A DNA stretch of 12,440 bases from a virus (Duplodnaviria > Heunggongvirae > Uroviricota > Caudoviricetes): IMG/VR virus record IMGVR_UViG_2698536348_000004; one strand, written 5' to 3'. Both the position numbers and the translations under genes were made by a program. Positions 11,572 to 11,736 of the stretch are shown in pieces. Numbering within the stretch: position 1 is the first letter of the stretch; each line of letters begins with the position of its first letter. The notes under the pieces were generated by a model, which was not told the origin of the DNA, ran no database searches, and worked only from the letters and a program-made list of their open reading frames with translations.

Positions 11572-11736
11572 ATGAAAAAGCGCGAGGAAGTAAGCAAGCT
11601 GCCTCGCAGACGTGATGCAGCATTAGCGGTTCCCTACAAAAAAGATGAGTTCATAAGCCCTTCTGATGACAAAAAATTTTCAAAGGCGAAAAGTTTTACA
11701 TCTACATCTCTAAAAGATAAATACTTTAAAATCTAG
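11572..11736 (+). CDS. Small basic protein (54 aa), not on the ORF track
   Basis: ATG at 11572, 2 nt after the kinase stop, AAGGA upstream; translation MKKREEVSKLPRRRDAALAVPYKKDEFISPSDDKKFSKAKSFTSTSLKDKYFKI; stop TAG at 11734-11736 abuts the terminator. Confidence 0.45.
   Translation: MKKREEVSKLPRRRDAALAVPYKKDEFISPSDDKKFSKAKSFTSTSLKDKYFKI

What the first reader, a model, noticed from the sequence alone, without database searches (positions are those of the whole stretch)
11572..11736. Unannotated 54-aa basic, Ser/Thr-rich ORF wedged between the kinase stop and the terminator
It is below the length cutoff of the ORF track, but it has a start 2 nt after the kinase stop, an upstream AAGGA, and a stop that abuts the terminator hairpin. 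Its composition (KKREE, PRRRD, SFTSTSLKDK) would fit a kinase substrate, pseudo-substrate or small regulator. That role is speculation.
Basis: inference. Interest (0 to 1): 0.55.

Follow-up and report, generated by a model that had tools for sequence, protein, structure and literature searches.

The report
Small conserved gene after Stk kinase
The 54-codon reading frame is real and almost certainly a genuine gene, but it is already annotated (hypothetical protein L0081 of Shiga-toxin phage 933W); it travels with the phage-exclusion kinase Stk and a RuvC-like protein, and its function has never been tested.

Summary
ATG 11572 to TAG 11736 lies 2 nt after the stk stop, AAGGA lies 9 nt upstream, and the stop overlaps a -14.5 kcal/mol terminator.

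"Unannotated" is wrong for public records. The window is the 933W-type immunity region, and the ORF is 933W L0081 (Phi24B vb_24B_12c, WP_000745484.1, PHROG 4063). It is always called "hypothetical", and PGAP sometimes skips it.

It behaves as a coding gene:
- A 50-59 codon ORF follows Stk-like kinases, mostly after the same 2-nt gap, in Escherichia, Serratia, Klebsiella, Raoultella, Pantoea, Proteus, Pragia and Yersinia, in unrelated neighbourhoods.
- Indels are in frame, third codon positions vary most, and dN/dS is about 0.3.
- Two motifs are conserved: PRRRDAALAxPY and FxSxSLKxKYFK[LI].

It diverges in step with the kinase and with the upstream RuvC-fold gene L0083. The unit is therefore a three-gene cassette at the end of the cI operon.

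A kinase-partner role (regulator or substrate) is plausible but untested. Orphan copies without any kinase in Salmonella prophages argue against strict dependence. The predicted peptide is basic and largely disordered.

This is a known ORF of unknown function, and interest is modest.

The parts
8891..9598 (+). cI repressor, first gene of the pRM/pRE operon that ends with the small ORF
   Evidence: 933W annotation. Pfam Peptidase_S24 plus HTH_3.
9659..10000 (+). L0084, a DUF3024 protein. Operon neighbour, not part of the mobile three-gene cassette.
   Evidence: Pfam DUF3024, E = 2e-31. PADLOC candidate PDC-S43, E = 5e-42. Absent from most cassettes elsewhere.
10068..10529 (+). L0083, a RuvC-fold protein and first gene of the conserved cassette. 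It overlaps the stk start by 7 nt.
   Evidence: AF2 pLDDT 90.5. Foldseek against T. thermophilus RuvC 4ld0: TM 0.82, E = 1e-9. Arg7 is invariant where, by eye, the motif resembles RuvC's catalytic-Asp motif (RuvC motif from my own knowledge). Always found upstream of the kinase.
10523..11569 (+). stk, the eukaryotic-like protein kinase Stk of 933W
   Evidence: Pfam Pkinase, E = 2e-46. 933W annotation. HK97 exclusion function cited in PMC3681748 and PMC6356687.
11558..11562 (+). Shine-Dalgarno-like AAGGA, 9 nt upstream of the ATG and inside the last codons of stk
   Evidence: Read directly. An AAGGA/GAAGG-like element is conserved at the same place in 10 diverged cassettes.
11572..11736 (+). 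The small ORF itself: 933W L0081 / PHROG 4063, 54 aa, basic, predicted to be mostly disordered
11735..11764 (+). Intrinsic terminator tM (hairpin 11735-11756 plus T-tract), the end of the cI operon. The same module is found at the end of lambda rexB.
   Evidence: 933W annotation 'tM'. A 37-nt match at 97% under rexB in lambda lysogens.

Best explanation
The ORF is a genuine protein-coding gene, 933W L0081.

What it is:
- It is the third and last gene of a mobile three-gene cassette: RuvC-fold protein L0083, Stk kinase, then a small basic protein.
- In 933W-type Stx phages the cassette sits at the 3' end of the cI (pRM) operon, so it is expressed in lysogens.

How it is probably expressed (inferred):
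- It is most likely translated by ribosomes that terminate at the stk stop codon 2 nt upstream.
- The conserved SD inside the last stk codons would help re-initiation.
- This would tie its dose to that of Stk.

What it probably does (inferred, not shown):
- The roughly 6.3-kDa, largely disordered peptide binds the Stk module through its two conserved motifs, PRRRDAALAxPY and FxSxSLKxKYFK[LI].
- It then acts as an accessory regulator. It either restrains the kinase in uninfected lysogens in a substrate-like or pseudo-substrate manner, or serves as a primary phospho-acceptor or adaptor once an infecting phage such as HK97 triggers Stk-mediated abortive infection.

Status of each step:
- Shown: the gene is real, under purifying selection, in conserved synteny, co-diverging with its neighbours, and transcribed with a lysogeny-type profile.
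- Inferred: translational coupling, physical interaction with Stk, and the direction of any regulation.
For: Identity and annotation.

Synteny:
- A 50-59 aa ORF starts 2 nt (8 of 10 lineages), 4 nt or 7 nt after the kinase stop.
- It is followed by a terminator in Serratia, Pragia, Klebsiella (two lineages), Raoultella, Pantoea, Proteus and Yersinia.
- The neighbourhoods are unrelated: cI operons, tail-gene regions and islands.
- All 40 IMG/VR loci that carry the ORF also carry stk.

Homology: the family profile finds the Yersinia and Klebsiella L060 ORFs as top hits at the syntenic position, E = 1e-3 and 1e-2. The exhaustive HMMER search gave only 11 representative clusters, all of this family.

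Coding signal:
- dN/dS is 0.28-0.41 for kinase-linked pairs.
- Variable columns by codon position are 37, 34 and 50 of 54, p = 8e-4.
- Indels are in frame, and alternative frames are closed.

Co-divergence: pairwise identity correlates at r = 0.92 with the kinase and 0.94 with L0083.

Expression: in Phi24B lysogens vb_24B_12c changes 3.6-fold (not significant) on induction. That resembles cI, stk and res, whereas lytic genes rise 40-140-fold (PMC4651098 Table S4). stk is reported to be under pRM control (PMC3430580).

Structure: AF2 gives pLDDT 68.6 and pTM 0.19 with three short helices. This is typical of a peptide that folds on a partner.
Against: - Kinase-less copies exist. Two distinct Salmonella prophage arrangements keep an intact ORF with its own GGAGG SD or an upstream spacer, and no kinase or L0083 within the loci.
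- Homology to the window starts 0-5 nt before the ATG and ends after the terminator, so the ORF plus terminator behaves as a separate mosaic module.
- Pseudomonas and Acinetobacter cassettes have L0083 and the kinase but no recognisable homologue. The peptide is therefore not a universal core part.
- There is no direct evidence of translation.
- From my own recollection of Friedman et al. 2011 (the paper is not held), stk alone was treated as the exclusion determinant.
- The first Ala of the RRRDAA motif is not invariant: Raoultella has RREEA.
Confidence: 0.5

Rival explanations
1. It is a stand-alone small lysogeny gene that has nothing specifically to do with the kinase. It would be a terminal accessory gene of lambdoid immunity operons, comparable in position to rexB or 434 hex. 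It would merely be linked to stk because both sit just upstream of the shared tImm-type terminator.
For: - Orphan copies lie directly at the end of cI operons in Salmonella, without a kinase.
- The ORF plus terminator moves as a discrete module.
- The terminator is the module shared with lambda rexB.
- Small accessory proteins co-transcribed with repressors are common (PMC3564112).
Against: - Outside cI operons, the ORF still follows the kinase with the same 2-nt gap. Examples are Serratia next to thrS and tail genes, Raoultella next to ssb and primase, Pantoea, and a Yersinia island.
- It co-diverges with the kinase.
- Orphans are rare: two arrangements, few contigs.
- Orphans show somewhat higher pN/pS, 0.45-0.8 against 0.25-0.42. 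That would fit relaxed constraint after loss of the partner.
Confidence: 0.25
2. Only the act of translation matters. Ribosomes reading to a stop that overlaps the terminator stem would stabilise the 3' end of the cI-stk mRNA, block Rho, or tune termination at tM. The peptide would be a by-product.
For: - The stop codon overlaps the hairpin in the window and abuts it in the Serratia, Klebsiella L052, Raoultella, Pantoea and Salmonella copies.
- The synonymous distance of the ORF is lower than that of the kinase in the same pairs: 0.24 against 0.41, and 0.45 against 0.71.
Against: - Conservation is at the amino-acid level: 23 invariant residues in alignment A2, two motifs, dN/dS about 0.3, and third-position excess.
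- The distance from stop to hairpin is 13-27 nt in Pragia, Proteus, Klebsiella L060 and Yersinia.
Confidence: 0.08
3. The conserved element is an RNA, for example a 3'-UTR-derived sRNA ending at tM, and the open frame is incidental.
For: The element lies directly upstream of a strong terminator, and the synonymous rate is slightly reduced.
Against: - There is no Rfam match, even at E = 1.
- The variation pattern is codon-periodic.
- The frame is kept open across lineages with dS above 1.
- Indels are multiples of three.
Confidence: 0.05
4. It is a chance ORF with no function.
For: It is short, has no Pfam or NCBIfam family, and has no experimental record.
Against: All of the conservation evidence above. 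The chance of an open frame is about 0.02 per lineage, and it is kept in at least 8 diverged lineages.
Confidence: 0.02

Closest known systems
933W L0081 / Phi24B vb_24B_12c / RefSeq WP_000745484.1 / PHROG phrog_4063 (hypothetical protein, unknown function)
   Same: Identical sequence, with a full-length profile match at E = 2.5e-39.
   Different: Nothing differs. This is the same gene, and no function has been assigned to the family.
Stk abortive-infection kinase of 933W (Tyler & Friedman 2004; Friedman et al. 2011, as cited in PMC3430580 and PMC3681748)
   Same: Same operon. The ORF is the gene immediately downstream and is co-inherited with stk.
   Different: The published system is described as the kinase alone. 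As far as the searchable literature shows, L0083 and L0081 have not been examined as partners.
Accessory exclusion genes co-transcribed with lambdoid repressors: lambda rexA/rexB and 434 hex
   Same: Same position, between cI and the tImm-type terminator. Same lysogenic expression. The terminator module is shared with lambda rexB.
   Different: There is no sequence similarity. RexB (from my own knowledge) and Hex (158 aa) are larger proteins. L0081 is a 54-aa soluble basic peptide.
Pseudo-substrate kinase inhibitors such as PKI of PKA (RRNAI motif; from my own knowledge)
   Same: Short, disordered and basic, with an Arg cluster followed by small non-phosphorylatable residues (RRRDAAL). Encoded next to a Hanks-type kinase.
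   Different: There is no homology, and binding or inhibition has not been tested. Position A16 is not invariant. Stk is reported to be a tyrosine kinase, so a basophilic Ser/Thr-type pseudo-substrate logic may not apply.
Single-gene kinase defence systems (PD-T4-6, MADS Mad6 kinase)
   Same: The kinase domain of Stk matches their profiles, E = 1e-37 to 7e-50.
   Different: The matches cover the kinase domain only. Their models do not cover a RuvC-fold partner or a small downstream peptide, and L0081 and L0083 gave no PADLOC hit.

Membership tests
L0081 / PHROG 4063 small-protein family | Full-length sequence match to the family profile (54 positions) | tested here: met
   phrog_4063, E = 2.5e-39, residues 1-54 of 54. 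100% identical to 933W AAD25426.1.
L0081 / PHROG 4063 small-protein family | Position immediately downstream of an Stk-type kinase, followed by an intrinsic terminator | tested here: met
   Gap of 2 nt, and terminator at 11735-11764. The same layout is seen in 10 diverged cassettes.
Bona fide protein-coding gene | Purifying selection at the protein level, with the frame kept across diverged homologues | tested here: met
   dN/dS 0.28-0.41. Codon-position test p = 8e-4, and other frames closed. In-frame indels.
Bona fide protein-coding gene | Direct evidence of translation (Ribo-seq, mass spectrometry or a tag) | not testable with these tools
   Only a transcript-level datum was found: Phi24B RNA-seq, fold change 3.63, not significant.
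Pseudo-substrate / substrate-type kinase regulator | Binds the kinase substrate groove and changes its activity, or is phosphorylated by it | not testable with these tools
Pseudo-substrate / substrate-type kinase regulator | Conserved consensus-like motif with an invariant non-phosphorylatable residue at the acceptor position | tested here: inconclusive
   R13, R14, D15, A16, A17 and A19 are invariant in alignments A1/A2. Wider members have RREEA, RRDVA, KREML and KRRDQ. Y22 is invariant in A1/A2 and retained in wider members such as Klebsiella L060, but is Thr in Yersinia.
Type II toxin-antitoxin antitoxin (labile inhibitor of a toxic kinase) | Antitoxin with a DNA-binding domain, usually encoded upstream of the toxin and autoregulating the operon | tested here: not met
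   The ORF is encoded downstream of the kinase. It has no HTH, RHH or any other Pfam domain, and the operon is driven by the cI promoters.
Arginine-rich-motif RNA-binding peptides (N / Nun type) | N-terminal helical ARM with about 5 or more Arg, and homology to the N peptide | tested here: not met
   It has only 4 Arg, three of them contiguous and followed by Asp. There is no Pfam N_peptide hit. The true N gene starts at about 12225.
Known RNA family (sRNA or terminator-associated element) | Match to an Rfam covariance model | tested here: not met
   No match at gathering score or at E <= 1.
RuvC resolvase (for cassette partner L0083) | RuvC / RNase H-like fold | tested here: met
   AF2 pLDDT 90.5. 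Foldseek 4ld0: TM 0.82, E = 1e-9.
RuvC resolvase (for cassette partner L0083) | Complete acidic catalytic set, including the first-strand Asp (E. coli RuvC D7) | tested here: inconclusive
   The N-terminus reads MRILGVR with invariant Arg7. By eye this resembles RuvC's first-strand Asp motif (the RuvC motif is from my own knowledge), which would put Arg where the Asp sits. E68 and E140 are invariant. No residue-level structural superposition was available.

The most novel reading that the evidence does not exclude
L0081-family peptides are dedicated gatekeepers of a three-component abortive-infection module.

- The module would consist of a RuvC-fold sensor (L0083), a Hanks-type kinase effector (Stk) and a small disordered inhibitor or primary substrate.
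- The peptide would hold Stk silent in the lysogen through its PRRRDAALAxPY motif and be displaced, degraded or phosphorylated on phage attack.
- The kinase-less copies at the end of Salmonella prophage cI operons would then be captured anti-kinase genes. They would let those phages, or their lysogens, neutralise Stk-type exclusion.
Probability: 0.15. Interest if true: 0.65.

Novelty: already known. Interest (0 to 1): 0.35.

Why it matters
Stk of the Shiga-toxin phage 933W is one of the earliest described prophage-encoded abortive-infection kinases. How it is kept silent and then triggered is not understood.

The kinase is inherited across Enterobacterales as a fixed trio, with a RuvC-fold protein and a small conserved peptide. 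This suggests that the functional unit has been studied incompletely, and it gives two concrete candidates for the missing sensor or regulator.

For annotation, it is a clean example of a sub-60-codon gene that pipelines call inconsistently, although comparative evidence for it is strong.

If the peptide does nothing measurable, the finding is just one more conserved phage hypothetical protein.

Tried and rejected
- Genome-collection scans for the peptide and for the kinase profile returned nothing useful. Short-query tblastn confirmation failed, and species representatives lack this prophage.
- Pfam, NCBIfam and PADLOC gave no family for the peptide.
- Rfam gave no hits.
- A profile search of solved structures for L0083 gave only noise, E about 0.1 to ALIX. 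The fold search was needed instead.
- AF2 of the peptide alone has low confidence, so no fold search was done on it.
- The primary Stk papers (Tyler & Friedman 2004; Friedman et al. 2011) are not held.
- Searches for L0081, vb_24B_12c and Z144x locus tags found nothing relevant.
- I tested whether the 112-aa gene preceding the Salmonella orphan is an L0084 (DUF3024) homologue. It is not, E = 0.89. It has only a weak sub-threshold EACC1 hit.
- I considered an N-like arginine-rich RNA-binding peptide and a type II antitoxin. Both were rejected on motif, domain and gene-order grounds.

Full report
**1. What the window is**

The region around the finding is 99.8-99.9% identical to the immunity region of Shiga-toxin phage 933W and its relatives. 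It matches 215 phage records and 1137 of 5426 complete E. coli genomes at least in part.

In 933W coordinates the + strand of the window carries, in order:
- cI (8891-9598)
- L0084 (9659-10000)
- L0083 (10068-10529)
- stk (10523-11569)
- L0081 (11572-11736)
- the annotated terminator tM (about 11737-11758)
- nutL (about 11993-12059)
- N (from about 12225)

The flagged ORF is therefore the last gene of the cI (pRM/pRE) operon. pL and N lie downstream of it.

**2. Check of the observation**

- The ORF exists exactly as described: ATG 11572 to TAG 11736, 54 aa.
- The kinase stop (TGA, 11567-11569) is followed by 2 nt and then the ATG.
- AAGGA lies at 11558-11562, 9 nt upstream.
- The stop overlaps the 5' arm of a G+C-rich hairpin (11735-11756) followed by TTTTCTTT. 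The hairpin folds at -14.5 kcal/mol, z = -2.9.
- The peptide has pI 10.0, 22% Lys, 17% Ser+Thr and GRAVY -1.08.

"Unannotated" is not correct for public data. The ORF is:
- L0081 / AAD25426.1 in the 1999 933W record
- vb_24B_12c in Phi24B
- WP_000745484.1 in RefSeq
- a perfect member of PHROG 4063, 'unknown function', E = 2.5e-39

Annotation is inconsistent, however. In E. coli EM10-18-28, PGAP calls L0083 and stk but not the intact small ORF.

The full ORF region is present in 223 of 5426 complete E. coli genomes and in 39 phage records.

**3. Is it a real gene?**

The word-indexed protein search found 10 clusters at 96-54% identity in Escherichia, Serratia, Salmonella and Pragia. The exhaustive HMMER search of 1.8 billion representatives added only a few more, 11 in total. 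The family is small and restricted to Enterobacterales.

I then worked from the kinase side. Of 533 Stk-like clusters, I sampled contexts at 77, 70, 61, 57, 51, 50, 45 and 48% kinase identity.

*Synteny.* In Klebsiella, Raoultella, Pantoea, Proteus, Pragia, Serratia and Yersinia the same layout recurs:
- a 145-169 aa L0083 homologue that overlaps or abuts the kinase start
- a 339-349 aa kinase
- a gap of 2 nt (8 of 10 lineages), 4 nt or 7 nt
- an ATG-initiated ORF of 50-59 codons
- an intrinsic terminator

*Homology.* The small ORFs are homologous. Those next to kinases of at least about 55% identity align directly. The Yersinia and the second Klebsiella ORFs are the top hits of a family profile among all six-frame ORFs of their loci, E = 1e-3 and 1e-2.

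*Conserved residues.* The pattern is M-K-K...[LP]-P-R-R-R-D-A-A-L-A-x-P-Y-[KT], then a variable acidic/Lys-rich middle that carries in-frame indels, then F-x-S-x-S-L-K-x-K-Y-F-K-[LI].

*Coding statistics.*
- dN/dS is 0.28-0.41 for kinase-linked pairs. For comparison, the kinase gives 0.05-0.14.
- Variable alignment columns by codon position are 37, 34 and 50 of 54, chi-square p = 8e-4.
- The other five frames contain stops in nearly every homologue.
- A stop-free frame of this length and composition has p of about 0.015-0.02 per sequence.
- An SD-like AAGGA/GAAGG is retained 9-10 nt upstream in all lineages, embedded in the conserved L-K-D/E C-terminus of the kinase.

Taken together, a non-coding or chance origin is effectively excluded.

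**4. The unit it belongs to**

- All 40 IMG/VR loci that contain the ORF also contain stk. L0083 is also present wherever the contig extends far enough upstream.
- Pairwise identities of the three proteins are strongly correlated: small ORF against kinase r = 0.92, small ORF against L0083 r = 0.94, kinase against L0083 r = 0.95.
- The neighbourhoods differ. Examples are cI operons of different immunity types, a site between thrS and tail genes in Serratia, a site next to ssb and primase in Raoultella, next to a Tlde1-domain gene in Pantoea, and next to a serine recombinase in Yersinia.

L0083-stk-L0081 therefore moves as one cassette. L0084 (DUF3024, PADLOC candidate PDC-S43) accompanies it only in some cI operons.

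L0083 is confidently predicted (pLDDT 90.5, pTM 0.86). It superposes over its full length on RuvC: T. thermophilus 4ld0, TM 0.82, E = 1e-9. By eye, its N-terminus (M-R-I-L-G-V-R) resembles RuvC's first catalytic-Asp motif, which would place the invariant Arg7 at the Asp position (the RuvC motif is from my own knowledge). It may therefore be a DNA-structure binder rather than a canonical resolvase. This is an inference.

**5. Expression**

- In Phi24B, whose immunity region is identical, RNA-seq shows vb_24B_12c changing 3.6-fold (p = 0.14) on norfloxacin induction. That resembles cI, stk (1.8-fold), res (1.2-fold) and 13c (0.65-fold). Lytic genes rise 40-140-fold (PMC4651098 Table S4).
- stk is reported to be under pRM control and expressed in stable lysogeny (PMC3430580).
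- No translation data for the small ORF were found.

**6. What it probably does**

The peptide has no detectable family of known function. It has no transmembrane segment. AF2 gives only three short helices at low confidence, pLDDT 68.6 and pTM 0.19. This fits a peptide that becomes ordered only when bound to a partner.

Stk is an abortive-infection kinase that is nearly silent in uninfected cells and is activated by HK97 infection.

Three observations point the same way: obligatory-looking linkage, a conserved 2-nt stop-start junction that would couple translation to stk, and co-divergence. The most economical reading is that L0081 is an accessory partner of the Stk module. It could restrain the kinase in a substrate-like or pseudo-substrate manner, or act as its proximal substrate or adaptor.

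- The Arg cluster followed by Asp-Ala-Ala-Leu-Ala, and the nearly invariant Pro-Tyr (Tyr becomes Thr in Yersinia), are compatible with this reading. They are only a lead.
- The first Ala is Glu in Raoultella.
- No binding test could be run.

I give the 'Stk-module partner' reading about 0.5, and the specific pseudo-substrate mechanism well below that.

**7. Evidence that cuts the other way**

Two different Salmonella prophage arrangements carry an intact copy with no kinase or L0083 nearby:
- cI, then a 112-aa gene, then a hairpin, then GGAGG-ATG...ORF, then a terminator (L007-L009)
- cI, then about 260 nt, then the ORF, then a terminator, then N (L068)

Nucleotide homology to the window begins 0-5 nt before the ATG and ends just past the terminator. 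The ORF plus terminator is therefore a separable mosaic module.

The terminator itself is the module found at the end of lambda rexB: 37 nt at 97% identity.

The orphans keep both motifs but show higher pN/pS, 0.45-0.8. These values are based on few substitutions.

The orphans could be any of three things:
- relics of cassette replacement
- independent genes, which is the main rival reading (0.25)
- captured anti-kinase genes, which is the speculative 'novel case'

Further from E. coli, Pseudomonas and Acinetobacter cassettes keep L0083 and the kinase but have no recognisable homologue. Acinetobacter does have an uncalled 57-codon Lys-rich ORF with the same 2-nt gap and a terminator.

A translation-only or RNA-level role is unlikely. 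Conservation is at the peptide level, and the stop-to-hairpin spacing varies from 0 to 27 nt. The lower synonymous divergence of the ORF relative to the kinase remains unexplained. It may simply reflect recombination of the ORF-terminator module.

**8. Verdict**

The feature is real, and its coordinates and signals are as described. It is almost certainly a translated gene.

It is not new: it is 933W L0081, a long-annotated hypothetical protein. What this analysis adds is that it is the conserved third member of a RuvC-fold/Stk/small-peptide cassette, together with the existence of kinase-less copies.

It is unproven, and the pseudo-substrate detail is speculation.

Interest is modest (0.35). 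It would rise if a knockout showed that the peptide gates Stk activity.

Noticed in passing
Loci L012, L022, L033, L039, L043 (stk region); protein cluster P0023: In several IMG/VR contigs the kinase aligns only from about residue 46 or 100 onward, while L0083 and L0081 are intact. A 220-aa truncated Stk cluster has 330 member sequences. This may reflect recurrent inactivation of stk, or assembly or annotation breaks.
   Followed up: no
window 10068-10529 (L0083): L0083 has a confident RuvC fold (TM 0.82 to 4ld0). It carries an invariant Arg7 where, by eye, the motif resembles RuvC's first catalytic-Asp motif (from my own knowledge). It is always paired with the kinase, including in Pseudomonas and Acinetobacter. 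It may be a DNA-structure sensor rather than a resolvase.
   Followed up: partly
window 9659-10000 (L0084): This DUF3024 protein matches the PADLOC candidate defence family PDC-S43, E = 5e-42. A 38%-identical homologue again sits between cI and the cassette in Proteus prophages.
   Followed up: no
window 11734-11770: The terminator and its flank are 97% identical over 37 nt to the sequence annotated under the 3' end of rexB in lambda-lysogenic K-12 strains. Hundreds of other E. coli prophages share 33-34 nt of it. This is a shared tImm-type module and a likely recombination joint.
   Followed up: partly
L007-L009 (6001-6153) and L068 (1277-1441): Kinase-less orphan copies of the small ORF sit at the end of Salmonella prophage cI operons. 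In L007-L009 the ORF is preceded by a terminator-like hairpin and its own GGAGG. The upstream 112-aa gene has only a weak EACC1 hit, E = 0.002.
   Followed up: partly
L065/L066, about 4062-4235: In Acinetobacter cassettes there is an uncalled 57-codon Lys-rich ORF (MKNLSHEGEV...). It starts 2 nt after the kinase stop and ends before a terminator. The position is the same as L0081, but there is no detectable sequence similarity.
   Followed up: partly
window 11572-11736 compared with 10523-11569: The synonymous distance of the small ORF is lower than that of the adjacent kinase in the same genome pairs: 0.24 against 0.41, and 0.45 against 0.71. This could be extra constraint on the RNA or a more recent exchange of the ORF-terminator module. 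It is unexplained.
   Followed up: no
window 11964-12122 and about 12225 onward: A 52-codon TTG ORF in the pL/nutL region is annotated as a hypothetical protein in phage phiXuzhou21-Stx2a and is probably spurious. PGAP annotates the N gene of strain TR01 only as a C-terminal pseudogene fragment.
   Followed up: no
window about 11480-11510 (Stk residues about 320-330): The non-kinase C-terminal domain of Stk has a conserved basic patch, Y-x-D-G-x-x-R-[RK] (window: YDDGRKRRATNL), across all sampled homologues. It superficially resembles the Arg cluster of the small peptide. No significance has been established.
   Followed up: no
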